A stretch of 64,000 nt of DNA from a virus, in the IMG/VR virus record IMGVR_UViG_3300046798_000124, positions 10,168 through 74,167 of that record, one strand, 5' to 3'. Below are positions 3,839-64,000 of the stretch, piece by piece. The notes under the pieces are model-generated. The model ran no database searches. It was given only the letters and a program-made list of their open reading frames with translations, and had not been told where the DNA came from. The translations under genes were made by a program, and so were the position numbers. Position 1 is the stretch's first letter, and each line of letters begins with the position of its first letter.

Positions 3839-3952
3839 TGAACGGAGGTCCTCGTCTGTGAGGACCTGGCGCCCATCTCAGGTCAGTGGCGGCCCTGAAT
3901 GTCCGCCCAGCATGTCACGTTTCGGGAAGAGTACCACGCAACCTCTAACCGG

Positions 3953-4192
3953 TCAACAGGATTTCACCGGTGTCCAGGTCCATTTGCCGTCACACCCAGG
4001 CTCGAGGCAGTACAGCGTCACGAGACGCGTCACGGTACACGTCACGAGGTAGAGACGGGACCCGTCAGTCTCACCCATGACGCGTCGACACCCGTCACGG
4101 GGACACCGGACCTCGGCCCGCTCAGCCGTTGGGACGCGTACCGACGACGGTACGACGTGCATGGTCCCCTCGTTGCCGTCGCTCAAGCTCAT
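3953..4192 (-). CDS. small zinc-ribbon protein (possibly Mu Com-like)
   Basis: C-terminal part of ORF 3953..4780: EVRCPRDGC...LYCLEPGC; immediately upstream of portal; start uncertain. Confidence 0.45.
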   Translation of the reverse strand: MSLSDGNEGTMHVVPSSVRVPTAERAEVRCPRDGCRRVMGETDGSRLYLVTCTVTRLVTLYCLEPGCDGKWTWTPVKSC

Positions 4193-4439
4193 GCTCGGGG
4201 CAGGCCACATCTCCCCCCAAGCTCGCCGCGATCCACCGCCTCGACCACCAGACGGACCAGCTCCGAGATCGCCCGAGCGAACTCCGGCGGCATCTGGCCC
4301 TGGCCGTAGGCCCCGTGGATCGTCACCTCGACCGACTCGACGTGGCAGGCGCACACACAGGCACCACCACGCGGCAAGGGACAGGAATCCCGCACGTCGT
4401 TCCAACAGCACGCCTCGTCGTAGCCCGTCGTGTCCTGGC

Positions 4440-4784
4440 TCATGCCAACCCTCCCGGACCACGGGCGGCGCGCCGCCGGCGCTGGCGTTCTCGCTGCGCC
4501 GCAGCGGCCCCCTCGCGGCACTTCGTGGCCAGGGCTCCGGCGACGCGTCCCGTCCTCGGCGAGAACCGCTCGGCGGGCTCCCAGGCGCGGTGGTAGCTGC
4601 ACCAGTGCTCGCCCTGCTCGCAATGCTCCAGGTACACCTGGAGCGGGATCCCGAGGAGGGTCGCCCCGTGCCGCATCCGAGCGAGGTGCGTCTGGGGTGG
4701 CGTCGTCCACAAGGGGGGTCCCTCGACTTCCGCCCAGCGCAGCGTCTCGAGCCCGTCGCGCTCGAGGTAGTCGTACTCACTCAT
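4440..4784 (-). CDS. hypothetical protein
   Basis: 114 aa ORF with start/stop overlaps to neighbours. Confidence 0.55.
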   Translation of the reverse strand: MSEYDYLERDGLETLRWAEVEGPPLWTTPPQTHLARMRHGATLLGIPLQVYLEHCEQGEHWCSYHRAWEPAERFSPRTGRVAGALATKCREGAAAAQRERQRRRRAARGPGGLA

Positions 4785-4970
4785 GGCCTCCCCTCCCCCT
4801 GAACCCGCTCACCACGCTCGGCCGGCGACCAGGCCAGCACGGATTCCAGCAGGCCGTCACAGAGCCGTCCAACCTCAAGCAGCATGTCGCAGTGGTGGAG
4901 CCCGTCACGGTCGACCATCGCTGTCGGCCGGCGGCCATGCACCGAGCACCAGTATTCGAGCACCAGCATC

Positions 4971-5306
4971 TCAGACCTCCACTGGGACCAGGGTCGTGTA
5001 CCGCTCGGCCGAGTCAATCGGGTCGGCGTCCGAGCAGAGGAGCACCAGCTCCCAGACCGGCTCACCCCGCAGCCGGCAGAGCCGCCAGTCCCGAGCGATC
5101 ACCCGCAGCCGGGTCGTCTGAAAGGCCGGGTGGACGCAGAGCCCCGGCGGGATCTCCAGCAAGTCGCCACGATGGAACGCGTTGGCGTCGACCCCGGAGA
5201 TCTCAAACTGCGGCACCAGGAACGGTGCGTCGTCGCCCGTGCGCTGGCGCAAGGCCATCGGTCCGAGCAGGCACCCGCCGGCGATCACCCTGGTCAGCAT
5301 GGCCAA
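4971..5306 (-). CDS. hypothetical protein
   Basis: 111 aa ORF directly downstream of terminase. Confidence 0.55.
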   Translation of the reverse strand: MAMLTRVIAGGCLLGPMALRQRTGDDAPFLVPQFEISGVDANAFHRGDLLEIPPGLCVHPAFQTTRLRVIARDWRLCRLRGEPVWELVLLCSDADPIDSAERYTTLVPVEV

Positions 5307-13720: not shown

Positions 13721-14066
13721 GTCGGACTCCCGTCCTGCTTCCAGGCGGTGAGACAGGCGAAGCCACAGAACACCAGGTCACCGGTCTGGGCTCGGGGCAG
13801 TGTGATCCGGGTGTAGGTCGGCAGGCGCTTCCCACAGCCCGTGCAGTGGGTCGACTCAGCGGGCTTCGTGGCGGCCATCGTACACCTCCCCCCACGGCAT
13901 GGTACACCGACCACTGGCCGGCCAAAGACGGCTGTTTTCGACGGGTTTCGGCCGTCTTACGGCGCATATGCGGCGGCGTATGACCAGAATCGGCGCGTTG
14001 GTGCGACGCGCGTGGGGATCTCTCGAAGGGGGCGCCGAGTGGCGAACATATTGATTCATAGCTCCG

Positions 14067-14531
14067 TCACTCGGGATCGTGGACCGGCGGCAGGGCCTCG
14101 TCGGCGGCCTGAAAGGCGTCGAGGGCAGCCGAGGTTGCTTCGGCGGCGGCGGTTAGCATGCGCCTCCGGGTCTCCTCCGGCGCCTGGTGGTGGTTGTAGT
14201 AGGTGGTCAGCAGGAGATCAGCGGAGGCGAGGACGACGCGGGCGAGTGCCAGGCGCGTCCAGACGTAGCGCAGCTGCTGGCGCTGATGCTCGGCCTCAGC
14301 CGAGGCGTAGAGCGCCATCGCGGCCGCGGCCTGACCTGGGGGGTAGCGCGGCGGCTCTTCGGGAGTACCGACGCCTGGGCGCACGTGCTCCTCCATCAGG
14401 GCCGCGGCATAGACCAGGTGGCTCACGATCTCCTGTGCCACGCGCGGGGACAGATCCTGGCCGGCGGTATGCACGACGTCGAAGCTGGTCCTGACGGCCT
14501 CCAGCACCACCGCCGCTACCTTCGGGTCCAT
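14067..14531 (-). CDS. hypothetical helical protein
   Basis: ATG coupled to the upstream TGA at 14531. Confidence 0.55.
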   Translation of the reverse strand: MDPKVAAVVLEAVRTSFDVVHTAGQDLSPRVAQEIVSHLVYAAALMEEHVRPGVGTPEEPPRYPPGQAAAAMALYASAEAEHQRQQLRYVWTRLALARVVLASADLLLTTYYNHHQAPEETRRRMLTAAAEATSAALDAFQAADEALPPVHDPE

Positions 14532-14856
14532 CAGCGGGGCGCGTCCCACCGCGAGCGGGGCCTCGGGACACCAGGATTCCCGCGACTGGGATGCTGCGAG
14601 CTGTCAGCGCAGCGGGTACAGACCAGCGCCGAGCACGAGAGTCGCACCAGGAAGTCACCGGCCGATCCCAGACCGAGGTTGTTACACCAGAACCAGATCG
14701 AAACCCAGGCCTCACCGCCACGACGGACCTCACTCACCTCACGGACGTAGTGAACCCGACCGGTGGTCCGGATCCGAAAGTAGGACGGTGGGTCCGGCAG
14801 GACGGTGACGCCCCGATCAGGCATAGCCCGCTCGTACTCGGGCAGGCGCACCACGG

Positions 14857-19411: not shown

Positions 19412-19440
19412 TTGACAGACGGTATACCGTGGTGTACCAT
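19412..19440 (+). promoter_or_regulatory. sigma70-type promoter with ACGGTATACCGT operator
   Basis: TTGACA-17-TACCAT; near-identical to the promoters at 16279 and 23788. Confidence 0.8.
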
Positions 19441-19994: not shown

Positions 19995-22182
19995 TGACCA
20001 CCGTAACCAACGACCTGACCACCCCGGAGCGCGCGGTTGCGCTCCTCCAGGCGCAGGGGATCCCCTGCCACTACGAGTCCTTCATGGGATCGATTTTCAT
20101 CGAGGACGACGGCGCCGAGTGGCACTTCGGCACCGTCAACGACACGTGGTGCGCCGACATCATGCACGACGCTGCTGTGGGCGACTCCTTCGGCTGCTGC
20201 GACACCGGGGTGCCCTCTGACACCCTCGACGCGCAGGCTCTTGCTTCCGCCATCGTCGCCGCCCTCATGCAGGGCACCGGCGTCGAAATCTGGAGGGACT
20301 GACCATGGACCGTTGCGAGTACGACGACGCCCCGACGCCTGAGCGACCGACGAAGGTCTGGCACACCAACCCGGACGGCCGTCGAGGGTACCTCTGGCAG
20401 TGGATCTGCCCGGACTGCGGCGTCGCCCACATCACCATCGTCAGCCCCACCATGTACGCCGGTCGCATGCCGTGCAGCCCCTGTCAGTGGAAGCGACAGG
20501 GCGGCACGTCTGCACCGCTCCCGCCCACCACCAAGAAGCCCAGGAGGGCACCCCGATGACGACCCTGAAGCGTTCCGTGGCCGAGGCCACCAGTGTCGAA
20601 GCCCACGAGGTCTACAGCCTCATCCTGAGCGAGGGCGAGCCGGCTGGCTACGCCTACGCCATCATCCTGGACGGTCTGGGCGAGGAGATTGACCGCCTGT
20701 TTGTCGAGCCGCCGCCACCGCTTAAGGATCGCTGCCACGACGAGGACATCTGGTGGGGCGACCACCCCGAATCGGACCTCCTGGGGTTCTCGTCCGACCA
20801 GTTCTCGCCCACCGCCATGCCCGGCGCTGGCTTCTACAACAACGTGGACGACATGTGGGGCTGCCCCGACTACCCGACGGCCATCGCGGCGCTCTTCCTG
20901 GAGCACGCCATCCGGGTGGACCAGGACTGGTACTTCGAGAACTCGGAGGCGTACTGGTCATGAATGCCCGATGCGCCCTGCTCGCCAACCCCTACCGTAA
21001 CGCCCCCGTGATGCAGTGCCCGACCGACATGCACCGCTTCCACTACCACGGCCACGACCCGGCCGGCCCGTTCCGCCCGATGGTGCCGGGCCGGCCCTGC
21101 CCTCACCGCCACAAGAGCGTGCAGGCAGCACTCGCCTGCACCGCCCGCCTGGAGGTCCCCCGATGACCGCCGCCAATACCACCGATGTCGTGCTCGTGAT
21201 CCGTGAGGGCGAGGTGCTCCTCCGTCGCGCCACCCCCGGGATCCGGGTGACCATCCTCAACTACGACATGGCCGAGGACTTGCTCCGCTCCGGTGCCATC
21301 ACCGACGACGGCACCGAGTGGGACGGTATCGGTACTCTCCACCACGACGAGCGCGGCACCCCCTACCTCATGACCAGCCCGGCCGTGACCTGTGCGGTGT
21401 GCTTCGACTGGATCGGGGACGACGAGCCGCGCACCAGCGTCGGCACCATGGACCGCGCCGCAAGCTTCTGCCGCCCCTGCACCATGGGGATGTCGCACGC
21501 GGACCTCATGACGGCACTCGCCACGGTCTGACTCGGCTGGTAGCCGTGCAGCTTTCCTGCACGGCCTCCAAGCGGGCCACCCGCTACCACCCCTGAGGAG
21601 ATCTCACATGACCACCGAGATAGCTCGCCATGCCCCCGTGATAGCCCTGCTCCGCGAGCAGGGGATCGCCGCTGAGGAAGCGGCGAGCGGCGGCAACTTC
21701 TACCACGTGAGTTTTGAGCTTCCGGACGGCGGCTACGTGCTGGCCGACGCCAATGAAGGCTGGTGGCTCGTCGGCCTCTATCGGCCGACTGACGACCCGT
21801 ACTGGCGGATGGCTGAGGGCGAGATGCACGACGCCGACCTCCAGGAGGACGCTGACCCCGCCCTGGTCGCCGCGTGGCTGCTGGACGTCGCCCGATGACG
21901 GCCGGACGATGTCAACGCTGCGGTTTCGCCGCCGCCGCCTACGATGAGTCGCTGTACAGGCAGTATGACGAGATGGTCTGCTGGGAGTGCTTCGAAGCTG
22001 AGCGACAGGCGCACCGGACCGCGTGCGAGATCTGCCATCAGCCGATCCCGCCCGACGACCCGCCACTCGGCGGCAGTGGCGCCCATGCCGCCTGCTACCG
22101 CCGCGCCGCCGCCGCCGACATGGACCGCCGTGCCCGCACGTACCGACGGGCGAACGGCATCCCCGACGCCGGCCGACCCTGA
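19994..22182 (+). other. run of seven small coupled early ORFs (19994-20302, 20305-20559, 20556-20963, 20960-21166, 21163-21531, 21608-21898, 21895-22182)
   Basis: ATGA/TGATG coupling, RBSs and GC3-rich codons; several acidic or CxxC proteins; no recognisable family. Confidence 0.65.
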
Positions 22183-22411: not shown

Positions 22412-22453
22412 GCTGGGCGACTTCACCGCCCCCGCCACCGAGAGGAGACGCTG

Positions 22454-23162
22454 ATGCTGTACGCCACCTTCCGCCGAGGATCCCACGATGAGACCACCCG
22501 GGTCCACCGGATCCCGTCCGTGACTGGTGAGCCGGGCTACTCCGACTACCGCCCCGCGCTCTGCGGCGCCACGGCGGCCCACCGCCTGTGGGCACCGGTC
22601 GAGACGCTGCCGCCGGCCGACGCCACCCCGCCCCGCGCCTATCTCTGCCCGCGCTGCTTCCCGGAGGGAGCCTCGTGACCACTGGTACCTGCGCCCGCTG
22701 TGACACGAGCTTCGAGCTTCACGGCTACCACTGGTGTCATCAGGTCTGCCCCGCCTGTATCCAGCCGCAGTGGATCGGGACCGATGGCACCATGCGCGCG
22801 GATGGCTTCTTCTGGCCCGCTGACCGCGAGCGGCTCGCCCGGCAGATCGCGGCCGATGGTGGCCGCTACATCCCCCGTTTCAAGGACTGACCATGTGGAG
22901 CATCTCCGATTCCCCGCCGCCAAGCTGGTACGAGCCGCCGGACGACATTGAGGAGGACGAACCCATGACAACGATCTATCGTCTGGCCGAGGGGCAGGGC
23001 TACGCGCTGGCCTTGCTCCAGACCGCCCCACAGGCCACCCCGTTCATGCGTATCCCGTGGGCCTCCCGCGTCATCAACGGCCCCCTGAAGCGCAGCGACG
23101 CTGCCCGCACCCTGTGGCAGGCGCGGCGACTCGGACGCATCGAGTCCATCACACGCACCTGA
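22454..23162 (+). other. small early ORFs (22454-22678, 22675-22890, ~22893-23162)
   Basis: RBS-preceded, coupled, with CxxC motifs. Confidence 0.55.
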
Positions 23163-23787: not shown

Positions 23788-23817
23788 TTGACAGACTGGT
23801 ATACCACGGTGTACCAT
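23788..23817 (+). promoter_or_regulatory. sigma70-type promoter with TGGTATACCA operator
   Basis: TTGACA-18-TACCAT. Confidence 0.8.
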
Positions 23818-23844: not shown

Positions 23845-24822
23845 ATGAGCATCGTCTACACGACCGTGACCGAGCGCGCCGACTACGACGGGATCGTCCT
23901 CTCCAGCACGCCCGTGGTCGTCTCGGCGACCGCCGGCCGCACCGATCCTGTGACCTTCCGCCGCGTCGAGCTGGATGACAGCTCAGACGGCTACTTCAGC
24001 CGCTATCAGGTCGAGCGGTACCACAGCTTCGGCTGCCTCGTCCTGTCGGAGGAGCAGTTCGAGCAGGAGGTCGACCAGGGCTTCATCGTCCTGGGCGAGC
24101 TACCGGCCTAGTCGCAGCACGCCGGGGCGGCGGTTGTCCCGCCCACGTTCGCCCATGGCTCCGGTACCGTCGGCGGTACCGGAGCCCACCACCACCCGAG
24201 AGGCACGAGCTTGGACTTCCAGACCTCGACCGAGACCACCGACTACGCTGCCGCAGCCAGGATCCACGTTCAGGGATCCTGTGGGCACCTCTTCTGGTGC
24301 TGGGTCAACGACCGCGACCAGAAGGTCGTGGACGCGATCCTCGATCAGGTCTGCGGCGCGCCGTGCCCGAGGGCCTCCTGCACCACCGGCGGCGCGTTTG
24401 TGCCGGTCCCGCACCCCGAAGTGCGCCACTTCACCCGCTAACCCACCACCCGAGAGGATCCGACCCATGCTCCTGATCAACACCGCGACCTGCTGCTGCG
24501 GCGACCTCGAATGGGCGCACGACGAGCACGGCTGCACGCGGGCCTTCTGCCCCTGCGCCACCTTTCGTCGCCACGTCGAGTGCGCGGCGTCACAGTCCGT
24601 GGCGCCATCCACCGGACACCGGGAGGCACCCTGATGACCTACCCCCCGCAGCCCCAGCCAGGACCGACCACGCGACCCCGCACCGTCCCCGAGTACGTCG
24701 GTTTCGGGTGCCTGGGCTGCCTGGGACTCGTCGCCGTCCTGATCGGCGGCTACCTCTCCCTGACCGTGCTGAGCGTCATCCTGGTCCTGATCTTCGCCGC
24801 GCTCAACACCACGCCCCACTGA
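23845..24822 (+). other. small early ORFs (23845-24111, 24211-24441, ~24466-24634, 24634-24822 membrane peptide)
   Basis: RBS-preceded ORFs downstream of the promoter. Confidence 0.55.
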
Positions 24823-24976
24823 CACGCCACGTGCCACAGCAGGGTATACTGAGGTATACCTCTGTGATGGTGGGTGGGGATCTGCACCCCACCCACCGGC
24901 CGGCCACCCGAAGGAGTCGACTTCAATGCCCGACCGTGAGCAGTGTATCCCACGTGAGCTTCTCTGGAGCGATGAC

Positions 24977-25429
24977 ATGTCGACACCCGCACCGCGCCCT
25001 GGCCCGATCCAGTTCCGTTCTGTCGAGCTTGAGCCCCATCTTGAAGCGCGCTCTGATGGCAGTCTGGGTCAGGTCGCCGTCCGCGACCTTGGTCGTTACT
25101 ACGAAGCCCTGAATCGAGCCCGTCCCACCTTCAGTCGTGATGAGGCACTGGCGATCATCGAGGTCTGCAACGGCACCCTCTGGGAGCCCTGGAGCATCCC
25201 CCTGCTCTGGGCGAGCGTCTCTGACGCGAAGGGCCTGGGCGAGCGCTGGTCCATCGACCAGGCCGCGCTGGTTGACCGCCTCCGCGCCCTCACCTACATC
25301 GAGATCCTCGCCATCATCGACTCAGCCGAGCGCGTCTGGCGTCAGGGCACCACCACCGGGCCGGCGCTCATCCAGACTCTTGAGGCGTCTGGCCTCATCG
25401 CTCCCACCCCCCAGGAGACCCGACCATGA
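24977..25429 (+). CDS. putative DNA-binding protein (possible ribbon-helix-helix N-terminus)
   Basis: IQFRSVELEPHLEAR...VRDLGRYY; preceded by tandem GGTATAC(T/C) sites at 24843-24860. Confidence 0.5.
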   Translation: MSTPAPRPGPIQFRSVELEPHLEARSDGSLGQVAVRDLGRYYEALNRARPTFSRDEALAIIEVCNGTLWEPWSIPLLWASVSDAKGLGERWSIDQAALVDRLRALTYIEILAIIDSAERVWRQGTTTGPALIQTLEASGLIAPTPQETRP

Positions 25430-26533
25430 CCACGAAGTACTTCTTCCACAGCCCGAGAGGTTTCTCGAATGAGGCAGACGTGTACGCCGTGCCGGCCGAG
25501 ATCGCAGAGCAGTGGCTCGAAACGTTCGAGGCCCGTCTCGGGTCGAGCGCCGACTACGCCGCGACCGCCGTCGAGCCGATCACGCGGAGGGTGGCCGAGA
25601 CACTGATCCGTCAGCCCGGCGTCGGCCTCCAGATCGACGGCGACGACTACAACTACGAGGACTGCACCACGAAGCAGCTGACCCCCGCCTCGCTGAGGTC
25701 GGCCCGCCGTGCGGCGACCGCGATGATCGCAGAGATCAAGCGGGAGATGGACTTCGAGGCCGAGATGGCCGACGCCTATCCCGAGTTCGCGGTGCAACCG
25801 CGATGACGATCCTGACGATCAGTCCCTACCAGAAGCCACCCTACACCCACGCCACGAACACCGGACGGCTGTTCCGCAGTCTGGGGGATGCCGAGGCGTA
25901 CGTCGCGGGACGGGACGCCTACTGGGCGGTGTTTGCCTCCATCCCCACGGATCAGGTCGGCAACTGGCAGGTACCGTTCCCGATGTCCAGGCAGCAGTAC
26001 GAGGACTGGGCTGAGCGGGTCGGCGTCGACGCCTGGGCCGACACCGTGATCCGCCAGAACGCCTACGCCTGCCAGTACTACGAACCCCAGACATTGACGC
26101 GTGAGACGGGCCTCCAGACGCTCAGGCTGCGACTCGCCAACCGCCGGCTGGCCCAGCTTGAATGGGATGACCGGCAGCGCCCCGTGGTCTTGCCGATGGA
26201 GGTGCTCCAGACCTGTGCGGCGTGTGGCACCACGCACCCTCCGCGCATGCTGCTGACCTCGCCAGTCGGAGTCGTATGCCCGGATTGTTATGACGAGGTG
26301 GAAGGATGACCCGCACCATCAATCGCTGCGAGTACGTGACCCGACGCGCCGGCCAGTCCGTCACCGGCCAGTCCATCCCCCTGGACGGCCACGGCGATAT
26401 GACGCAGATCTGCGGTCGGTTCGGCAGCCCTGTACCGCACACGTTCCACGTCAAGCGGCCGGGCACCACGAGCGTCTACGACCCACGGGAAGGCACGGTC
26501 ATTCGGTGTGCTGAGCACGCCGACACTGCGTGA
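25426..26533 (+). other. three coupled hypothetical ORFs (25426-25806, 25803-26309, 26306-26533)
   Basis: ATGA overlaps; the 25803 ORF ends in CxxC...CxxC. Confidence 0.6.
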
Positions 26534-26576
26534 GCTACTCAGCCTTCAATCCGCTACTTTCGAGAGGAGCACCTCA

Positions 26577-27143
26577 ATGACCGTACGAGATTGGCGAGCT
26601 GCGGAGTCGATCGTTACCCTGCCGATGGTCCCGATGCAGTTCGCCAACTTACTCCCGCATCAAGAGGGCCTGTACATCGCGGTGATCGGTCACTGCTATG
26701 TGGGGTACGTGGGCATGTCCTGGACCTCGATCCTTTGGCGTTGGTATCAGCACCGTGCGATGCGTGGTACGGCCGGGAAGGCGGCTGCCCTGATCGAACT
26801 GGCGCATCGTTTCAGGCTCGATGGCATACAGACACCGGTCCTGATCCACTATCTGGTCGATGCGTGGGAGCACAAGAAGGATCTCCTCGCTGATGAGCGG
26901 AGCATCCGGGACATCTGGAATCCGCCGCTCAACGCGCCGCGCTATGGCAAGGATGGGTCGCCGTGGTTGATCCGAGAGCATTGGGTGGCGCCACCAGAAG
27001 AAGGGGTCTACCGACCCAACATCGGATGGGACTATGTGACAGCTGAGCATGGTCCAACATACTGGACACCGCCCGAGACAGCGTTGACGAGCACGGTTGG
27101 GATGTCCCTCATGCCTCCTGGCACGACAGCTTCGAGTGTCTGA
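26577..27143 (+). CDS. GIY-YIG nuclease-like protein
   Basis: GLY...YVGMS...RWYQH...E...I...PPLN pattern. Confidence 0.55.
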   Translation: MTVRDWRAAESIVTLPMVPMQFANLLPHQEGLYIAVIGHCYVGYVGMSWTSILWRWYQHRAMRGTAGKAAALIELAHRFRLDGIQTPVLIHYLVDAWEHKKDLLADERSIRDIWNPPLNAPRYGKDGSPWLIREHWVAPPEEGVYRPNIGWDYVTAEHGPTYWTPPETALTSTVGMSLMPPGTTASSV

Positions 27144-28560
27144 CCTCGTCAGCCTTATGACGGCCACTCAGGAGAAACGATGCCAGGGACAGGTGGCGGC
27201 GACCCGCTTCCGAGGCGGATTCGTTGCGGCTGGTGTAACGACTACGAGACGCCAGTCATGCGGTCGCACGTGGCTGCCCTGGCTCGATTGGAGAGTCACG
27301 TCAAGGAGTCGCATCCAGTCAGATACGAAGCGGCGATCAAACGGTCTGCCGAGTGACGACGATAAGCACGATTTCGTCGGGCGTACAGGAGGGACCGTGC
27401 CAAGAACTACGGCCGATGTCGAGGCTGAGTTACTGCAAGACTACTACGGCGATCTACCCTGGCTCGACCTTCCGCCCACGTCGGGCTGGTACTGGTTCCG
27501 GGTCGTGCCATCGGTAGCGATCCACGGTCCAACCCGCGTACGCCTAATCGGAGGGCGCCTCGTCGGTCAGGTCCACGACGGCGGGAACGGCGAGAAGCCG
27601 GTGGAACACTTTCAGCGGCAGTGGGCTGGACCGCTGGCCCGGCCCGTCCCCGCTGAGTGACTGACCTATCGAGTTTTTCGTTCGACACACTCCGGAGGAC
27701 TGCTCATGTTCATCGCTGGAAACACCCACCCGCTGGTGCTCTTGATCGCCTACCTCGTCTTCGCGGTGCTCTGGATTCACCGGTGGCGGCAGGCCAGGCG
27801 CGACGGGCGCTGGCTGCTGATCTGAGTGGCCGATCTCTCTACTCTGTGCATACCTACGCCCTGGAGGGGATCATGACGACCCGAGGCCGGCTCTACCACC
27901 GCGCGTTCCGCTGCGGCGACTGCTGCGCGCTGCAAGTCGGTGAGAGCGACCTGTGCGCCGGAGCGTACGAGGGGATCTGTCACAAGGTCTGGTTCGAGAC
28001 CTACGGGACGAAGCCGTGGGAGGATGACCGATCCTGGGAGTTGACCCAGGATCTCAGCAACACGCCATTCTGAGTGACCGACCTACGCAGATTTTCGTCT
28101 GGCCTGCACTGGAGGCGTCTTGGAGAGGATCAGAGACCAACTGTTCGGTAGCATGCGGCTCGCTGTCGAAGCCGGACACACCTCTGGTCGAGCAGTCGCC
28201 CAGAACGGCGACGAGTGGGTCTGTGTCTCCTGGTCGCCGTTGCCGTCCGGTCAGACGGCCGTCTCGATAGCCATCGGCATTTCCGAATACCGTGCGCGGA
28301 TGCTCGCTGACCAGCGTCTTGCGGCTGAGGTTGCGAAGCACTGAGAGCCGACCTATGCAGCTTTTTCTTCCCCGCAAGGAGGTCACATGAGGCCAGACGC
28401 ACCGTTTTGCTCCCGCTGTGAACATGACGAGCGGCAACATCGCGTCTGGGCTGAGGGCTGCACCGCCATCATCACGATTGACGACAACGACGACGATGTC
28501 TACTGCGACTGCGAGCGGCTGTTTCTCGCAGTCGAGTGACGGAGATATCTAGCCTTTTTG
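27134..28560 (+). repeat. mini-gene array with conserved junction GAGTGaCyGAccTa...TTTT (ORFs 27180-27356, 27397-27660, 27706-27825, 27873-28073, 28120-28344, 28387-28539)
   Basis: Junction copies at 27134, 27351, 27655, 27824, 28072, 28343 and 28534, each overlapping or abutting a stop codon. Confidence 0.7.
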
Positions 28561-28607
28561 GCCCCACCCGGCGACTTCACCGCCGGCCACCACCGAGAGG
28601 AGACCCC

Positions 28608-28916
28608 ATGGACCCTGAGCTTCACGCCCGACTCACCCGGAGCGGCATCGACCCGGATCTGGCCCGTCTCTGCCGCCGCTGTCGGCACCCACGCCGCATC
28701 ACCGGCTACGAGCAGGGGCGGCTCTCCTGGGTCTGCCAGACCCCATCCTGCCTCGCCGTCGGCTCGCCCCACCTCGTCTCCAGCATCACGATCCAGGCGA
28801 CGTGCGCCCCCTGTGGCGACCCCGGTGAGCACCGCCTGGCCGAACTGTCGAACGGCGAGATGGTCGCCACCTGCCACGGCTGTCACACCGTGACGATCAT
28901 GTCCCCCCTACCCTGA
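28608..28916 (+). CDS. multi-CxxC zinc-binding hypothetical protein
   Basis: AGAGGAG RBS; four Cys pairs. Confidence 0.6.
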   Translation: MDPELHARLTRSGIDPDLARLCRRCRHPRRITGYEQGRLSWVCQTPSCLAVGSPHLVSSITIQATCAPCGDPGEHRLAELSNGEMVATCHGCHTVTIMSPLP

Positions 28917-29057
28917 CATCTGTGTCAGGTCGGATGGGTCGAGGCGTGGGGGTCGGGACGCCGAGGGCAGGGACCAGGCGGCGGCGATCCCCACGTCACC
29001 GACCACAAGGACAGCCAGGGAATCCGGGATTTTCGGAATGCCCTGACCGAATTTTCC
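28910..29057 (+). repeat. bipartite dispersed element copy 4
   Basis: CCTGACATCTGTGTCAGG ... ACAAGGACAGCCAGGGAATCCGGGATTTTCGG. Confidence 0.8.
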
Positions 29058-29092
29058 GCGCACCGCATCACCACCCGAAAGGAGCTCAGGCT

Positions 29093-30013: not shown

Positions 30014-30120
30014 CACCGAGGTGTTGAGACTCTTCATCAAACCCGTTGAACTCCGGTATCCTGGTACGGGGCACCTGGGCGCGAGGAGTACCCACTGCCC
30101 CAAGAACGAGCAGGGAGCGC

Positions 30121-30837
30121 GTGGTGCAGGCGTTGAACGAACGACACGGTGTGACCATGATCGACACAGCTGACCTGTCCGAGCGGGAGCGGGCACTGCT
30201 GACGCCGGCGGTGATTGCCCGCTGGACGGACGGGCTGGCCCCCGACGACGAGATCGACCCGACCGAGATCGTCGGCCTGGAGAAGCGGCGCCTCCAGGCG
30301 CTCCAGACGCTCCGGAAGGGCGCAGACCTCTCGGACCAGGAGTGGAAGCTGCTGCGCTTCCTCCAGCGCAACGAGGGGCGGACCTGTACCTACTTGCAGA
30401 TCGCGCGGCACCTCTGGCAGACGCCATCCCACCGCGTCACCGCCCAGAGCCTGATCAGTATCAATGCCAGCCGACAGGGCCTCGGCGGGGTCGTCACCAC
30501 CATCCACGTCCTGGTTCACGGCATCCGCTACAAGCTCGAGATCGACCCATTACGCCCACAGCACCTGTGCAATATCCGAGGCGTTGGGTATCGCTTTTAC
30601 TCGCTGCCGCCATCGCTCAACGATGGCGAGAACTACGAGCGGAGGGCCACCGAGTCCGCGGTCCTGCGCGAGCAGCTGTACCAGCAGCTGGGCCTGCTGG
30701 AGGGTGACTACGTGGCCGTCGAAGACCGCACCGGCACGCCCTACGAGACCCGTATTCGGCCCGGGCCAGAGCACCCGGATCACCCTGTCGCCATCGACGC
30801 CGACGTGATGACCGCTGCGTCCGAGCGACGGCCATGA
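30121..30837 (+). CDS. OmpR-type winged-helix (Trans_reg_C) protein without receiver domain
   Basis: LSDQEWKLLRFL...IARHLW...IHVLVHGIRYKLEIDPLRPQHLCNIRGVGYRF; start uncertain. Confidence 0.8.
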   Translation: MVQALNERHGVTMIDTADLSERERALLTPAVIARWTDGLAPDDEIDPTEIVGLEKRRLQALQTLRKGADLSDQEWKLLRFLQRNEGRTCTYLQIARHLWQTPSHRVTAQSLISINASRQGLGGVVTTIHVLVHGIRYKLEIDPLRPQHLCNIRGVGYRFYSLPPSLNDGENYERRATESAVLREQLYQQLGLLEGDYVAVEDRTGTPYETRIRPGPEHPDHPVAIDADVMTAASERRP

Positions 30838-54777: not shown

Positions 54778-57700
54778 CAGCGTGGCACCGTCCCCAGGAA
54801 CTTGCGTCCCCGCTGGACATTGAGGTTGTAGCCGTCGATCCAGAACCGTTCGACTTCACGGTTCCCGATGTAGACCGGCATCTCGACGGTGGTGTGCCCG
54901 CCCTGTCCGCCACCCCCCATCGGCGTCACCCATTCAGGCGCTGCTTCACCCGCCATGGCGTAGGCGCCCAGCGTCTTGCCGACCAGCAGCGTCGGCTCTG
55001 GGATCAACCCGCCACGCGCGAACCCTGGCAGGCCCTGATGGACCCCGATGCCACGCTTCAGCGGGCCGTACCACTCGCCCCAGCCGTGCTCCAGGGCGTA
55101 GTCCAGCGCCCAGTCAATCGACGCCGGCCAGGCCCGAGCGTCCTCGGGCTGCCAGCCGGTGTCTTTCGTGAACTGTGTCCCCTGGCCCGCCTGATAGCCG
55201 TACCGCTCGTACCCCTTGCCGCCGTAGTGCTGCTGGAACGGCCAGAACGACCAGCCCGAGTCGAACTTGCCGATGCGCATCGGCTCCAGCCCACCCTCGC
55301 TGTCGACGACTTCCAGGGCAACGTCTTCGTCGATGTCACGCTTCTTGGCCGCGTTGCGGATGTACGTCTCGATCCGGTCGGCGTTGGCATGAGGGTCGCC
55401 GGCGTTCTTGCCGCCGGGCAGCGGGATCCGATACTGCCGCCCGAACAGACTGAAGACCAGGTAGCCGTCCTGGATCGACATGCCGTGGCCGAGATCGCGG
55501 TCACCAGCCAGCTGCGGTCCCTCGCCCGTCAGGTACGGGACCGGGTCGATATGCCCGCCGTTGACCGAGGTCCTGACGGCGTAGTGGAGGTGGGGCGAGC
55601 CCTCGGTTCCTGACTCGCCAAGGACCCCGATGTCCTGGCCGGCGTCGACGTGCTCACCCTGATCGACCAGATAGCGCTGGGCGTGGCCGTAGTAGTTGTA
55701 GAGACCATCGTCGGTCCGGATAATGAGCCCGTTGCCGCCGGCCGACTCGAACCCCTTCCAGTAGACGGTCCCCGGCTGGAACGCGCCGAACGTCTGGCCC
55801 ATCCCGTTGTTCGGCCCCGGCAACGCCAGGTCGATGCCCTGGTGGCGGGATGGCCCGCCTGACCACATCGCCCCACCCGAGAAGGGGCCGTTGTACGGCG
55901 CGTCGTAGGGGAACGTGACGCGCCAGGGGCTGGGGATCCCGCCCGCTGACGGCCCTCGCCCCTGTGGCTTGTCGGACCCTCGGCCACCGCCATGATCGCC
56001 GTCGTCGTCGCCGCCGCCATCACCCGACTTGACATCGATCTTCTGGTCTTTGAGCAGGCGCTTGAAGTTCTCCGCGATGTCAGCGAACGTCTTGTCCGCA
56101 ACCTCCATGATCGGCTTTTGGAAATTGTCTTCCCAGTCTTTCTTGGTGTCCTTCAAGCCCTCGATGGTGTTCTTGTGGACATCCTCCAGTTGCTTGAACA
56201 GGCCATGGACCGGGTCATTGAAGGTCGATTCGATGGCCTTCTTCTCGTTGTCGTACTGCTTGTTGACCTCAATGGTGCGGAGGTCGTATTGCTCCTTGGT
56301 CGTCTCGTACGCCTGCTTGAGCTTCGGGATCAGGCCGGTCTCGGGGTCGTCGTAGACGTCGTGGATCCGCTGGGTCTCGTTGCGAGCCAGGGTGTCGGCT
56401 GCATCTTTCCGCAGCCCCCACTCGGTGGTGTACTGCTCGAGGGCATCCTTGCTGGCCTGGATCTGGGCATCCGAGGTGTCGTGGGCCGCCAGCTGTTCGA
56501 TGCGGGCGGTCTCCTCGGCCTCCTTGCGCTTGTCCTGCGCCGCCAGATCCTCGGCCGTGCGGTGGTCCCGAATGCGCCGCTGGACCTCTTTGAGGGCATC
56601 TTCATCGCGACGCTGAAGCTCCTGGTTATCGTCGTCTTCCTGCTTCTTCTTGACAGCCAGGGCCGCCAGCGCCGCGTCGCGCTCATCCTCGATCCGAATC
56701 TTCTTCTTGGCCAGGGCGTCCTTCTCGCGCCGCTCGGCATCTTCGAGCTTGGTCTTGGCGTCGTCGGCAACCTCCTGCCGCTTGACCTTCTCCTGCTCGA
56801 GCGCATCCTTCCGCGCTGCCAGGCCGTCCTTGATCTTGGTCAGGTCGTCGTCAGCCGCGATCTTCCGCGCGTCCAGGAGATCCTTGACCAGCTTTAGCTC
56901 ATCGTCGGCTGCGATCTTCCTGGCATCGAGCACATCCTTGACCAGGGTGTACTCATCGTCGGCCGCCCGCTTCCTGGCGTCGATCCCGTCCTTGATCTGC
57001 TCCAGCTCGTCGTCGGCCGCCCGCTTCTTGGCGTCGACCTCGTCCTTGATGACGCGGAGGGCGTCGTCGGCCGCATCCTTGCGCCCCTTGACGCTCTTCT
57101 CGACGGCGTCGAGCGTCTCGTCGGCCAGCTTCTTCTGGTCGTCAATGGCGTCGAGGATCTGCTGGTGCTCGCGATCGGCCTGGTTCTTAGCGAGTTTTCC
57201 CCCCTCAACGAGGGCGTCCTTCTTCGCTTTGAGCTGGGCGACCGCAGCGTCGTGAACGGCATCCGCCGTCTCATCGGCAATCGCCCGCTCAGCAGCCGCA
57301 ACCTCGGCGGCGTTGCCACCAGACTGGGCCTTCGCCAGGGCGCTCTGGAGGTCGGCCATCTTCGAGGCGCGCTTGTCGGTCTCCTGGGCCGCGTCGAGCG
57401 CGTCCACCGACGCGTCCACAAACGCCAGCTGTGCCCGCAGCTCCTCTTCGAGGTTGTCGAGGACGGTCTGGTGACGGTCATCCTCGGCGTCTTTCCGCTC
57501 CTTGAGTGCGTCGATGGCGGCGTCGTGGATCTCCTTCGCCAGATCCAGCTCGTCGTCGAGCCCGTCGACGGTCGTCCGGTGCGCCCGCTCTGCGGCGTCG
57601 GCCTGATCTTCGAGCCCCCGGGTGATCACATCGTGGGCGTCTTCGGCGCGCTTCGCCTCGTCGTCCAGGCCACGGGTGACGGTGTCGTGGCGCTTCTGCG

Positions 57701-63476: not shown

Positions 63477-64000
63477 CTACCGCTTCAGCTCCATGACGGT
63501 CAGGCTGCCGCCGAAGCCGTTCAGCTGCGAGGCGCTGACCCTGAAGCGCGCCCGGACGGTATGCACACCGGCGGCGAGACCCGTAAAGCGGTGGGCCGTC
63601 GACTGGGTAAACTGGGCGGCGCCCGTCGCTGGTACGGTCACGACTTCGGCGACTTCGGCCCCGTTATCGACGTTCAGCGCCAGGTAGGCAGCGTTCCCGT
63701 TCGCGGTCATGTTGCCGCAGTAGGTGGCCCAGGCCAGGATGTCGCCGCCGACCGTTGTCAGGGGCAGGCCCGTGGCGTTGATGTCAGCGTAGGTGGTCAG
63801 ATTGGTCGTCGCGTTCAACACCTGCCACGCCGCCTGGGTCACGGCGTTGGGTTGGATGTCGGCGGTCGCGACCGCCCGACGGGTACCGGTCGCGGTGTCG
63901 GAGACCGTGCCGCCGGTGTTGCCCGCCAGGTTGTTCAGGCCGATGTAGGCGTTGGTGCCAGCCGAGACGTTGATGCCGTACGAGCCATTGCCGGTTGAGA
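63477..64000 (-). CDS. fibre-like protein, 3' part (runs off window end)
   Basis: Frame is open to the window edge; IQPNAVTQ...LTVMELKR resembles the 52310..53056 C-terminus. Confidence 0.6.
   Translation of the reverse strand, partial: STGNGSYGINVSAGTNAYIGLNNLAGNTGGTVSDTATGTRRAVATADIQPNAVTQAAWQVLNATTNLTTYADINATGLPLTTVGGDILAWATYCGNMTANGNAAYLALNVDNGAEVAEVVTVPATGAAQFTQSTAHRFTGLAAGVHTVRARFRVSASQLNGFGGSLTVMELKR

What the first reader, a model, noticed from the sequence alone, without database searches (positions are those of the whole stretch)
26528..28608. Cassette-like array of mini-genes joined by a conserved ~25-nt junction motif
Seen: seven consecutive gene junctions share GAGTGaCyGAccTay-x-AG-x-TTTT at or over the stop codon: 27134 gagtgtctgacctcgtcagcctta; 27351 gagtgacgacgataagcacgattt; 27655 gagtgactgacctatcgagttttt; 27824 gagtggccgatctctctactct; 28072 gagtgaccgacctacgcagatttt; 28343 gagagccgacctatgcagcttttt; 28534 gagtgacggagatatctagccttttt. 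In six of the seven, an RBS and the next unrelated 39-87 aa ORF follow about 45-50 nt later (Zn-finger-like, TM peptide, Cys-rich); the last gap is about 74 nt. The block looks less GC-rich than its flanks and is headed by a GIY-YIG-like gene. Neighbouring early genes use ATGA coupling instead. Inference: individually acquired and exchangeable gene cassettes (integron-like but without attC hairpins), or an RNA-processing/translation signal for an anti-defence peptide array.
Basis: partly seen in the sequence, partly recalled or inferred. Interest (0 to 1): 0.8.

Follow-up and report, generated by a model that had tools for sequence, protein, structure and literature searches.

The report
Repeated linker between small phage genes
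A soil phage separates eight unrelated small early genes with diverged copies of one ~45-60-nt spacer; the repeat is real, is not integron-like, and resembles the intergenic repeat motifs already described in other phages, most likely acting as a small expression or regulatory unit in front of each gene.

Summary
The seven listed junctions carry a co-oriented motif, consensus GAGTGAC-n-GAcc-T-a-nnn-A-g-nn-TTT. Left out of its own weight matrix, each site ranks 0-8th of 148,207 genome positions. Four copies are strong, one is moderate and two are weak. There is also a degenerate head copy at 26528 and one stray copy on the minus strand (14037-14074), which again overlaps a stop codon. Similarity covers the whole stop-to-Shine-Dalgarno linker, not only 25 nt.

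The linkers are unstructured. They have no hairpin, attC-like site or terminator, and no Rfam family or sigma-70 -35 box. The contig has no integrase. The ORFs are not paralogues.

The block is compositionally atypical, and its genes differ in how widely they occur elsewhere. In one relative, known only as a protein, the 87-aa gene runs straight into a different gene with no linker. Four other soil or rhizosphere metagenomes show the same gene order.

Best reading (about 0.35): each linker is a DNA-level expression or regulatory adaptor, comparable to T4 PeSLs and to the intergenic repeats of actinobacteriophages. Its repeated homology could also allow genes to be shuffled. An RNA-level role and a passive recombination scar remain possible. 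I class it as a new member of a known kind, of moderate interest.

The parts
26528..26576 (+). Linker 0: degenerate head copy of the motif with a 4-5-nt deletion, then SD and the start of the 188-aa gene
   Evidence: Alignment A1. nhmmer E = 0.13 when left out of the profile, so weak on its own. It lies 49 nt before the ATG.
26577..27143 (+). 188-aa gene, probably a distant GIY-YIG-fold nuclease. It has no homologue elsewhere and GC3 of 0.70
   Evidence: No Pfam or PHROG hit. No homologue found. My AlphaFold2 model was unusable. ESM Atlas feature and structure neighbours are all GIY-YIG or UvrC.
27134..27179 (+). Linker 1. The stop codon used is the third TGA position of the motif. It contains a GAGTG...CACTC inverted repeat
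   Evidence: E = 3e-4.
27180..27356 (+). 58-aa Cys/His-containing ORF, GC3 0.68
   Evidence: no family hit.
27351..27396 (+). Linker 2, a weak copy
   Evidence: Leave-one-out matrix rank 4 of 148,207. nhmmer is not significant on its own.
27397..27660 (+). 87-aa gene, a conserved phage protein family of unknown function
   Evidence: Seven other clusters at 53-75% identity (8 rows listed, one being the window's own protein). The C-terminal tails vary after the conserved RPVP.
27655..27705 (+). Linker 3, the best copy. TGA-g-TGA-c-TGA closes all three frames. GAGTG...CACTC abuts the SD
   Evidence: E = 7e-7.
27706..27825 (+). 39-aa hydrophobic (transmembrane-like) peptide gene, GC3 0.90-0.92. 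Absent at this position in the relative that encodes P0018
27824..27872 (+). Linker 4, a weak copy
   Evidence: Leave-one-out matrix rank 2; nhmmer E = 0.4.
27873..28073 (+). 66-aa Cys-rich ORF, GC3 0.85. Its N-terminus is weakly similar to the second half of P0018
   Evidence: 10 of 22 identical residues, E = 0.012; suggestive only.
28072..28119 (+). Linker 5, a strong copy
   Evidence: E = 1e-6.
28120..28344 (+). 74-aa gene. The TTG start is supported by homology. It has distant relatives among small proteins and inside repeats of very large proteins
28343..28386 (+). Linker 6, a moderate copy with a 1-nt deletion in the GAGTG box
   Evidence: E = 0.03.
28387..28539 (+). 50-aa Cys-rich acidic ORF, GC3 0.73
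   Evidence: Only a weak PHROG HNH-type hit, E = 0.007.
28534..28607 (+). Linker 7, a chimera. The 5' part is the motif. The 3' 35 nt (28570-28604) is a leader shared at 91% identity with the leader of the gene at 22454
   Evidence: E = 1e-3.
28608..28916 (+). 102-aa zinc-ribbon-like gene, the last of the array, GC3 0.86
14037..14074 (-). Stray ninth copy on the other strand. Its GAG-TGA supplies the stop codon of the leftward gene 14067-14549. No gene follows at the usual distance
   Evidence: nhmmer E = 1.3e-3 and not in the training set; sequence.
23788..23817 (+). Canonical promoter-like site (TTGACA-N18-TACCAT) upstream of the block, nearly identical to the one at 19412
28914..29092 (+). 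Copy 4 of a separate dispersed bipartite element (palindrome TGAC-N6-GTCA, then T-tracts) that closes the array

Best explanation
The block is a stack of unrelated accessory early genes in a 74-kb, 66% GC soil siphovirus-like phage. Each gene is preceded by a diverged copy of one ancestral intercistronic linker.

A linker reads, 5' to 3':
- a box, GAGTGAC-n-GAcc, whose TGA triplets supply the stop codon of the upstream gene in whichever frame that gene arrives;
- an invariant T-N4-A-N3-T followed by a T-tract;
- about 12 nt;
- a GGAGG Shine-Dalgarno sequence, then the start codon.

I read the linker as a DNA-level, per-gene expression or regulatory adaptor. In this reading the invariant A-N3-T acts as a -10-like element without a -35 box, and the 5' box is the binding site of a phage or host factor. 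Each small gene would then get its own start of transcription, or its own regulatory check-point, inside the long early operon.

As a by-product, the repeated homology gives a recombination system a place to add, lose or swap small genes. This is how PeSLs behave in T4-type phages.

Shown here: the repeat itself, its register with stop and start codons, its lack of structure, the unrelatedness and atypical composition of the genes, and the different neighbour in one relative.

Inferred: promoter or factor-binding activity, and any role in recombination.
For: 1. The motif is real and its sites evolve unevenly. Each copy ranks 0-8th of 148,207 positions when left out. Six invariant columns give P = 0.005. 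This argues for constraint on particular bases, not only shared ancestry.
2. All copies run in the direction of transcription, including the single minus-strand copy in a leftward operon.
3. The invariant A and T are spaced as positions -11 and -7 of a -10 hexamer. The T lies 24-30 nt before the start codon in six linkers. In the phage's two canonical TTGACA/TACCAT promoter-like sites the same distance is 28 and 30 nt.
4. In linker 7 the motif's T-tract is joined to a 35-nt leader. That leader follows a T-tract of the separate bipartite element upstream of gene 22454, so the two T-tracts occupy equivalent positions.
5. The linkers do not fold. Their z-scores are -1.2 to +1.8, and three are less structured than shuffled sequence. 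This fits a signal read as DNA or as single-stranded RNA, not a hairpin.
6. The ORFs are not paralogues and similarity stops at the linker edges.
7. Block GC3 is 0.77 against 0.85 in the flanks (P = 1e-6) and is heterogeneous between neighbouring genes (P = 0.002).
8. The block genes differ in how widely they occur elsewhere, and one relative has a different junction after the 87-aa gene.
9. Precedents exist. PeSLs run from the upstream stop codon through a promoter to the SD and start, upstream of ORFans (PMC2839356). Microbacterium phage clusters EC and EI carry co-oriented 18- and 30-bp intergenic repeats; the EC repeats lie 21-30 bp upstream of start codons (PMC7302621).
Against: - There is no -35 box. 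The first base of the putative -10 hexamer is C or G in five of seven copies, unlike the phage's own TACCAT sites.
- The best-conserved box would lie only about 4 nt upstream of the putative -10, an unusual place for an activator site.
- The contig has no sigma-factor region 2 and no phage RNA polymerase. The only candidate factor seen is a winged-helix Trans_reg_C protein at about 30.1-30.8 kb, and nothing links it to the motif.
- The stray copy at 14037-14074 keeps the stop-codon association but has no gene at the usual distance and lacks the T of A-N3-T. This fits a gene-end function better than a promoter.
- There are no transcript data.
- Four other metagenomes show identical gene order and no deletion joints at the motif. 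They hold nearly the same phage, so the test is weak.
Confidence: 0.35

Rival explanations
1. The signal acts in the mRNA. The unstructured, U-rich linker would be an endoribonuclease processing or stability site that separates the cistrons, or a ribosome standby or re-initiation platform placed between the stop codon and the next SD.
For: - The motif always starts at the stop codon, and the stray ninth copy keeps that association without a downstream gene.
- The linkers are as unstructured as, or less structured than, shuffled controls.
- The T-tract (U-tract in RNA) lies 10-15 nt 5' of the SD.
- Three or four copies have GAGTG...CACT(C), with the 3' arm directly abutting the SD.
- All copies are on the transcribed strand.
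Against: - No conserved secondary structure, no covariation and no Rfam match.
- The closing stem is present in fewer than half of the copies.
- Other well-separated genes of this phage use a different C/A-rich leader without a U-tract, so the linker is not a general requirement for translation.
- Selection for an unstructured region alone would not keep specific bases invariant.
Confidence: 0.25
2. The linkers are passive recombination scars, or 'boundary sequences'. They are homologous by descent because each small gene arrived, or was shuffled, by recombination at a pre-existing linker. On this view they have no sequence-specific function beyond carrying a stop codon and an SD.
For: - Homology spans the whole linker, and the copies fall into sub-families: 27655/28072/28343, and 26528/27134/28534.
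- Linker 7 is visibly chimeric.
- Upstream genes end at the first, second or third TGA of the box, as expected if ORFs simply read into a shared junction.
- Neighbouring genes differ in GC3 and in how widely they occur elsewhere.
- Relatives of the 87-aa gene have different tails straight after the conserved core.
- Short conserved boundary sequences are an established proposal for phage mosaicism (PMC3029335).
Against: - Significant rate heterogeneity among sites, with six invariant columns, points to selection on particular bases.
- The longest shared stretches are only 16-18 nt, which is marginal for homologous recombination.
- No rearranged forms appear in four metagenomes.
Confidence: 0.2
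3. The sites work like stoperators: asymmetric binding sites for a phage DNA-binding protein that blocks or tunes elongating RNA polymerase at each gene boundary, without any promoter activity.
For: - The motif is asymmetric, lies in short intergenic regions, and is oriented with transcription on both strands. Those are the defining geometric features of Cluster A stoperators (PMC3029335).
- The conserved 5' box is about 12-14 bp, similar in size to the 13-bp stoperators.
- A winged-helix protein is encoded 1.2 kb downstream.
Against: - Eight of nine copies are packed into 2 kb instead of spread over the genome.
- No integrase or recognisable immunity repressor was found, so there is no evidence that the phage is temperate.
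- The T-tract and the A-N3-T outside the box are also conserved.
Confidence: 0.12
4. These are integron-like cassettes, excised and inserted by site-specific recombination at the motif.
For: A co-oriented array of short unrelated ORFs separated by a repeated junction.
Against: - No tyrosine or serine recombinase in the 74-kb contig, which is about 86% complete by CheckV and probably complete given its 126-bp terminal overlap.
- No imperfect inverted repeat or foldable attC-like site.
- Every ORF has its own SD.
- No excision joints in four metagenomes.
- The exact motif pattern recurs in no related contig in the viral, metagenome or genome collections.
Confidence: 0.03

Closest known systems
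PeSL (promoter-early stem-loop) regulatory cassettes of T4-type phages (Arbiol et al. 2010, PMC2839356; Comeau et al. 2014, PMC4122927)
   Same: - A repeated composite intergenic unit that begins at the stop codon of the upstream gene and ends with the SD and start codon of the next.
- It sits in front of small ORFans in a variable early region and is co-oriented with transcription.
- In PeSLs, repeated homology between neighbouring units has been shown to mediate shuffling. The same could apply here.
   Different: - PeSLs contain a consensus sigma-70 -35/-10 promoter, an AT-rich upstream region and a stable stem-loop terminator. The present linkers have no -35 box, no stem-loop and no terminator.
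- There are 8-9 copies, not about 50.
- The genome is high-GC and siphovirus-like.
- Neither minicircles nor recombinant forms were seen or could be tested properly.
Asymmetric intergenic repeats of Microbacterium phages: cluster EC 18-bp motif and cluster EI 30-bp motif (Jacobs-Sera et al. 2020, PMC7302621)
   Same: - Asymmetric motifs in short intergenic regions. The EC copies are all oriented the same way.
- The EC motifs lie upstream of the ribosome-binding site, 21-30 bp before start codons. Here the 3' end of the conserved part lies about 20-27 nt before the start codon.
- They occur largely among small non-structural genes, and their function is unknown.
   Different: - No sequence similarity.
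- Those motifs are dispersed over the genome, and those phages carry a sigma-factor gene. Here the copies are clustered, overlap the upstream stop codon, and no sigma factor was found.
Stoperators of Cluster A mycobacteriophages (PMC3029335; PMC9283540)
   Same: [quoted passage not shown]
   Different: - Stoperators number 24-34 per genome, are spread genome-wide, and belong to a repressor-based immunity system of temperate phages.
- Here there are 9 copies, 8 of them within 2 kb, with no repressor or integrase identified.
Start-associated sequences (SAS/ESAS) of Cluster K mycobacteriophages and cluster EF Microbacterium phages (as described in PMC7302621)
   Same: A conserved sequence tied to translation starts of a subset of genes, with a weaker extended element upstream.
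   Different: - SAS coincide with the ribosome-binding site itself. The motif here lies 20-50 nt upstream and its SD regions are ordinary.
- A separate recurring C/A-rich leader ending in GAGAGGAG in this phage is the closer SAS analogue.
Short conserved boundary sequences at module junctions of lambdoid phages (concept as cited in PMC3029335)
   Same: Short homologous sequences at gene boundaries that could direct homologous recombination and create mosaic gene order.
   Different: Boundary sequences were defined by comparing genomes. Here the repeat is seen within one genome, and relatives' DNA could not be obtained.
Integron attC gene cassettes
   Same: A co-oriented array of short unrelated ORFs with a repeated junction.
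   Different: No integrase, no attC secondary structure, and each ORF has its own SD.

Membership tests
Integron gene-cassette array | An adjacent IntI-type tyrosine recombinase | tested here: not met
   No PF00589 match (E <= 0.1) in the whole 74-kb contig. No serine recombinase either (PF07508).
Integron gene-cassette array | attC sites: imperfect inverted repeats that fold into a recombinogenic hairpin | tested here: not met
   Folds of all seven junctions have z-scores of -1.2 to +1.8 against shuffles, with no shared hairpin.
Integron gene-cassette array | Excised circular cassettes, or variable cassette order between close relatives | tested here: inconclusive
   Contigs from four other soil or rhizosphere runs bridge junctions 27655-28534 in the same order, with no joints. 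They are nearly the same phage at low depth.
PeSL (T4-type promoter-early stem-loop) | A sigma-70 consensus -35 and -10 promoter | tested here: not met
   The promoter scan finds no site in any linker. There is only an A-N3-T, with no -35 box.
PeSL (T4-type promoter-early stem-loop) | A stable stem-loop acting as terminator or attenuator | tested here: not met
   no terminator-like site and no significant structure.
PeSL (T4-type promoter-early stem-loop) | Spans upstream stop codon to downstream SD and start, upstream of ORFans in a variable region | tested here: met
   for the anatomy; for the heterogeneous origin of the genes.
PeSL (T4-type promoter-early stem-loop) | Recombination between copies produces indels, replacements or minicircles | tested here: inconclusive
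   Protein P0018 shows a relative in which the 87-aa gene runs directly into another ORF, with neither the linker nor the 39-aa gene. The relative's DNA was not obtainable. No joints.
Stoperator (Cluster A mycobacteriophages) | Asymmetric site, intergenic, oriented with transcription | tested here: met
Stoperator (Cluster A mycobacteriophages) | Many copies spread across both genome arms | tested here: not met
   Whole-genome matrix and nhmmer scans find 8 clustered copies and 1 elsewhere.
Stoperator (Cluster A mycobacteriophages) | A cognate immunity repressor that binds the site | not testable with these tools
   No integrase was found. A winged-helix protein is present, but binding cannot be tested in silico.
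Intrinsic terminator | A GC-rich hairpin directly followed by a U-tract | tested here: not met
   T-tracts are present, but no preceding hairpin.
Actinobacteriophage-type asymmetric intergenic repeat (e.g. Microbacterium cluster EC/EI) | A co-oriented repeat in short intergenic gaps, upstream of the RBS and a few tens of nt from the start codon | tested here: met
   compared with the descriptions in PMC7302621. This is a descriptive class with no known mechanism.
GIY-YIG nuclease (the 188-aa head gene) | A match to the GIY-YIG domain model | tested here: not met
   No PF01541 hit at E <= 10 and none in the Pfam scan at E <= 1.
GIY-YIG nuclease (the 188-aa head gene) | The GIY-YIG fold | tested here: inconclusive
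   My AlphaFold2 model had pLDDT 38. In the ESM Atlas, 21 of 30 feature neighbours (score 0.94) and all 10 structure neighbours (TM 0.43-0.52) are GIY-YIG or UvrC. By my own reading, the sequence has GLY-x10-YVG-x-S...RW-x2-H...E...N.

The most novel reading that the evidence does not exclude
The linker is a portable 'plug-in' adaptor: a stop codon usable in any frame, then a regulatory box, a minimal promoter and an SD. Through recombination between copies, it would let a high-GC siphovirus capture, stack and exchange unrelated small genes. The array may have been seeded or driven by the free-standing GIY-YIG-like nuclease at its head. This would be an independent, structurally different counterpart of the T4 PeSL minicircle system.
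Probability: 0.15. Interest if true: 0.6.

Novelty: new member of a known kind. Interest (0 to 1): 0.35.

Why it matters
Phage early regions are full of small accessory genes, and how these are gathered and expressed is known mechanistically only for a few model systems such as the T4 PeSLs. A second, sequence-unrelated linker family would suggest that repeated intercistronic adaptors are a general route to building such gene arrays. This one lies in a high-GC soil phage and has a clear register between the upstream stop codon and the downstream start. It would also give a handle for finding array boundaries in metagenomic phages, and a short list of ORFs to test for host-takeover or counter-defence activity. 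As it stands, this is one more phage intergenic repeat of unproven function, in a genome without cultured relatives.

Tried and rejected
Searches for relatives' DNA:
- Megablast, blastn and tblastn against the INPHARED phage collection found nothing usable for the block or for its 188-aa and 87-aa genes. The downstream 168-aa gene has one distant hit.
- IMG/VR and GTDB scans with the 188-aa protein, the 168-aa family and the 87-aa family were empty.
- The portal protein finds only distant fragments.
The contigs that encode the relatives found as proteins (P0003-P0020) could therefore not be fetched.

Motif pattern scans: scans of the viral, metagenome and genome collections gave only single chance hits in unrelated contigs.

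RNA runs: no RNA holder was listed.

Structure of the 188-aa protein: the AlphaFold2 model had pLDDT 38 and was unusable. The PDB sequence search gave only noise.

Readings considered and dropped:
- Tandem duplication of gene plus linker: there is no paralogy between the ORFs.
- A designed three-frame stop: only one linker closes all three frames.
- An ECF-type promoter, GTGAC-N17-CGT: the CGT is present in only 3-4 copies and the invariant bases would fall in the spacer. No sigma region 2 was found.
- A T7-like promoter: no phage RNA polymerase hit, though that search's controls were silent.
- A sigma-54-like -24/-12 reading: it fits only two copies, by my own inspection.
- RNase III-type hairpins or a riboswitch.
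- A CRISPR-like array: the intervals are 170-610 nt and coding.
- A cleavage site for the GIY-YIG protein: unlikely, because the sites sit in the phage's own genome.
- The mycobacterial RNase E preference (RN|CNU, recalled from memory) matches GACCU in four copies, but carries too little information to count.

Full report
**Context.** The window is 64 kb of a 74,167-bp IMG/VR viral contig with 66% GC. CheckV estimates it 86% complete. A 126-bp exact overlap between the two contig ends suggests that it is in fact complete. It encodes a portal protein, an endolysin, a 1,672-aa ORF that is probably the tape-measure protein, and several DNA methyltransferases. It has no tRNA genes. It has no close relative among cultured phages or in IMG/VR. 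The finding lies in a rightward early region. About 3 kb upstream of the block is a canonical promoter-like site at 23788 (TTGACA-N18-TACCAT). This site is nearly identical to one at 19412.

**Observation.**
- A weight matrix built from six sites ranks the seventh 0-8th among 148,207 genome positions, for every site left out.
- With a gapped profile, leave-one-out E-values are 7e-7 (27655), 1e-6 (28072), 3e-4 (27134), 1e-3 (28534), 0.03 (28343), 0.4 (27824) and 13 (27351). Four copies are therefore strong, one is moderate and two are weak. The weak ones are credible mainly because they sit in register at a stop codon.
- The profile finds one further copy in the genome, on the minus strand at 14037-14074 (E = 1.3e-3). 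Its GAG-TGA is again the stop codon of a gene, the leftward gene 14067-14549.
- The junction ahead of the 188-aa gene (26528) looks like a copy with a small deletion (E = 0.13 when left out).
- MAFFT shows that similarity runs through the whole linker up to the Shine-Dalgarno sequence. The copies fall into sub-families.
- In an 8-copy, 30-column alignment, six columns are invariant: GAG, a C, a T and an A. Two T columns are nearly invariant. This is more than expected if mismatches fell at random (P = 0.005).
- Motif 5' end to start codon is 44-51 nt in six linkers and 74 nt in the last.

The side claims also hold.
- Upstream genes overlap by ATGA.
- The block is less GC-rich.
- Its pooled GC3 is 0.77 against 0.85 in the flanking genes (P = 1e-6). 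It is heterogeneous between neighbours: five genes are at 0.69-0.74 and three at 0.86-0.92 (P = 0.002).
- The 'GIY-YIG-like' head gene gets no HMM support. My own fold model failed. The ESM Atlas places it among GIY-YIG and UvrC proteins both by language-model features and by its predicted structure. The label is therefore a reasonable lead.

**What the linker is not.**
- None of the seven junction RNAs folds better than shuffled sequence, and three fold worse.
- No terminator-like or sigma-70-like site falls in a linker, and no Rfam family matches.
- The contig has no tyrosine or serine recombinase, no sigma-factor region 2 and no single-subunit RNA polymerase hit.
- The ORFs share no detectable similarity, and nucleotide similarity stops at the linker edges. 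The array is therefore not a diverged tandem duplication.
- Only one linker closes all three reading frames, so a deliberate three-frame stop is not a conserved property.
- What is conserved is that the upstream gene always ends within the first ten bases of the box. It uses the first TGA position three times, the second three times and the third once. The box is therefore a nucleotide-level feature into which ORFs read, not a conserved C-terminus.

**Comparative evidence.**
- The exact motif pattern occurs in no related contig in the viral, metagenome or genome collections.
- Eleven soil or rhizosphere runs hold more than a quarter of the sampled words of the stretch. I laid four of them on the region. 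Their contigs are the same phage at low depth. One strain is 4-5% divergent at 24.9-25.8 kb but at most 1.4% divergent across the block. The contigs bridge the junctions from 27655 to 28534 in the same order, with no joints at the motif. This argues weakly against frequent rearrangement.
- At the protein level the block genes behave differently from each other.
  - The 188-aa gene has no homologue among 5.8 billion proteins.
  - The 87-aa gene belongs to a family with seven other clusters at 53-75% identity. Their tails diverge immediately after the conserved RPVP.
  - The 74-aa gene has only relatives at or below 44% identity. They support its TTG start.
  - The gene just downstream of the array has seven homologues at 49-69% identity.
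- One member of the 87-aa family, P0018, occurs on 17 JGI contigs of up to 127 kb. It reads on without a stop through a few residues that look like a translated Shine-Dalgarno sequence, into a different Cys-rich ORF. In that relative there is neither a linker nor the 39-aa peptide gene at this position. The second ORF is at best weakly similar to the window's 66-aa gene (10 of 22 identical residues, E = 0.012).
- This is the only direct sign of gene gain or loss at a linker.

**Mechanism.** Three readings survive.

1. *DNA-level adaptor (about 0.35).* I rank this first for four reasons.
   - The invariant A and T are spaced like positions -11 and -7 of a -10 element.
   - The T lies 24-30 nt before the start codon in six linkers. 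The two canonical promoter-like sites of the phage have 28 and 30 nt.
   - Linker 7 is a chimera. The motif's T-tract is followed by a 35-nt leader that elsewhere follows a T-tract of the separate bipartite element.
   - Specific bases, not just composition, are conserved.
   
   The weaknesses are:
   - there is no -35 box;
   - the first base of the putative -10 hexamer is atypical;
   - the conserved box sits unusually close to the putative -10;
   - the stray copy has no downstream gene.
2. *RNA-level role (about 0.25).* This is supported by the constant tie to stop codons, the lack of structure, the U-tract just 5' of the Shine-Dalgarno sequence, and a GAGTG...CACT(C) pairing that abuts the Shine-Dalgarno sequence in three or four copies. 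That pairing is not general.
3. *Passive recombination linker (about 0.2).* This is supported by whole-linker homology, sub-families, chimerism and the heterogeneous origins of the genes.

A stoperator-like roadblock (about 0.12) fits the asymmetry and orientation of the sites, but not their clustering or the lack of an immunity system. An integron-like mechanism is effectively excluded (about 0.03). The first and third readings can both be true, as they are for PeSLs.

**Comparison with known systems.**
- The nearest functional analogue is the PeSL of T4-type phages. It likewise runs from the upstream stop codon to the downstream start in front of ORFans, and it mediates shuffling and minicircle formation (PMC2839356). 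The present linkers fail two defining PeSL features, the sigma-70 promoter and the stem-loop.
- The nearest descriptive analogues are the asymmetric intergenic repeats of Microbacterium phages of clusters EC and EI. The EC repeats are co-oriented and lie 21-30 bp upstream of start codons. Their function is unknown (PMC7302621).
- Stoperators and 'boundary sequences' (PMC3029335) each share part of the logic.

**Verdict.** The feature is real and statistically solid. It is a new member of a known kind: repeated intergenic linker or regulatory motifs in phage accessory-gene regions. Its function is unproven. The integron analogy should be dropped. The cassette-like, mosaic nature of the genes is plausible, but it is documented by only one protein-level case. 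Interest is moderate (0.35).

Noticed in passing
window 63875-64000 and contig bases 27-152 (upstream of the window): A 126-bp stretch is 100% identical between the two ends of the contig. The 'linear, 86% complete' record is therefore probably a complete circularly assembled or terminally redundant genome of about 74.0 kb.
   Followed up: no
window 19412-19440 and 23788-23817: Two nearly identical promoter-like sites, TTGACA-N17/18-TACCAT. Both contain the same palindrome-like GGTATACC...GGTGTACC spacer, and each lies 28-30 nt before an ATG. They are probably the main early promoters with a shared operator.
   Followed up: partly
window 21590-21607, 22430-22453, 24190-24210, 24445-24466, 24905-24925, 28585-28607, 29065-29092: At least seven genes share a second type of leader, C/A-rich (CCACCACC) and running into a GAGAGGAG-type Shine-Dalgarno sequence. 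This resembles the start-associated sequences of Cluster K and EF actinobacteriophages.
   Followed up: no
window 22416-22449 and 28570-28604: A 35-nt leader containing a small GC hairpin is shared at 91% identity between the upstream regions of two unrelated genes. This shows that leader segments have been copied around the genome.
   Followed up: partly
window 28120-28344: The 74-aa protein matches small phage-like proteins of 76-110 aa. It also matches 2-10 repeated stretches inside very large proteins of up to 5,081 aa (P0023-P0029). It may therefore be a free-standing copy of a repeat domain.
   Followed up: no
window 24860-25822: In one rhizosphere or soil run (X4) the co-occurring strain differs by 4-5% here, but by at most 1.4% over the following 5 kb. 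This is a local divergence hot-spot or a recombination patch.
   Followed up: no
window 30046-30837: This ORF carries an OmpR/PhoB-type winged-helix domain (Trans_reg_C, E = 9e-10). It is the only clear DNA-binding regulator seen near the array.
   Followed up: no
window 13890-13975 (minus strand): Downstream of the stray motif copy lie an 8-bp-stem hairpin and then a GGTGTACCAT -10-like box resembling the two early promoters. This is probably a terminator-promoter pair inside the leftward operon.
   Followed up: no
window 56956-57050; also contig bases about 3917-4978, upstream of the window: A 41-nt tandem repeat lies inside the 1,672-aa ORF (probable tape-measure gene). Outside the window, two adjacent segments of about 456 nt are 84% identical and are probably paralogous genes.
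   Followed up: no
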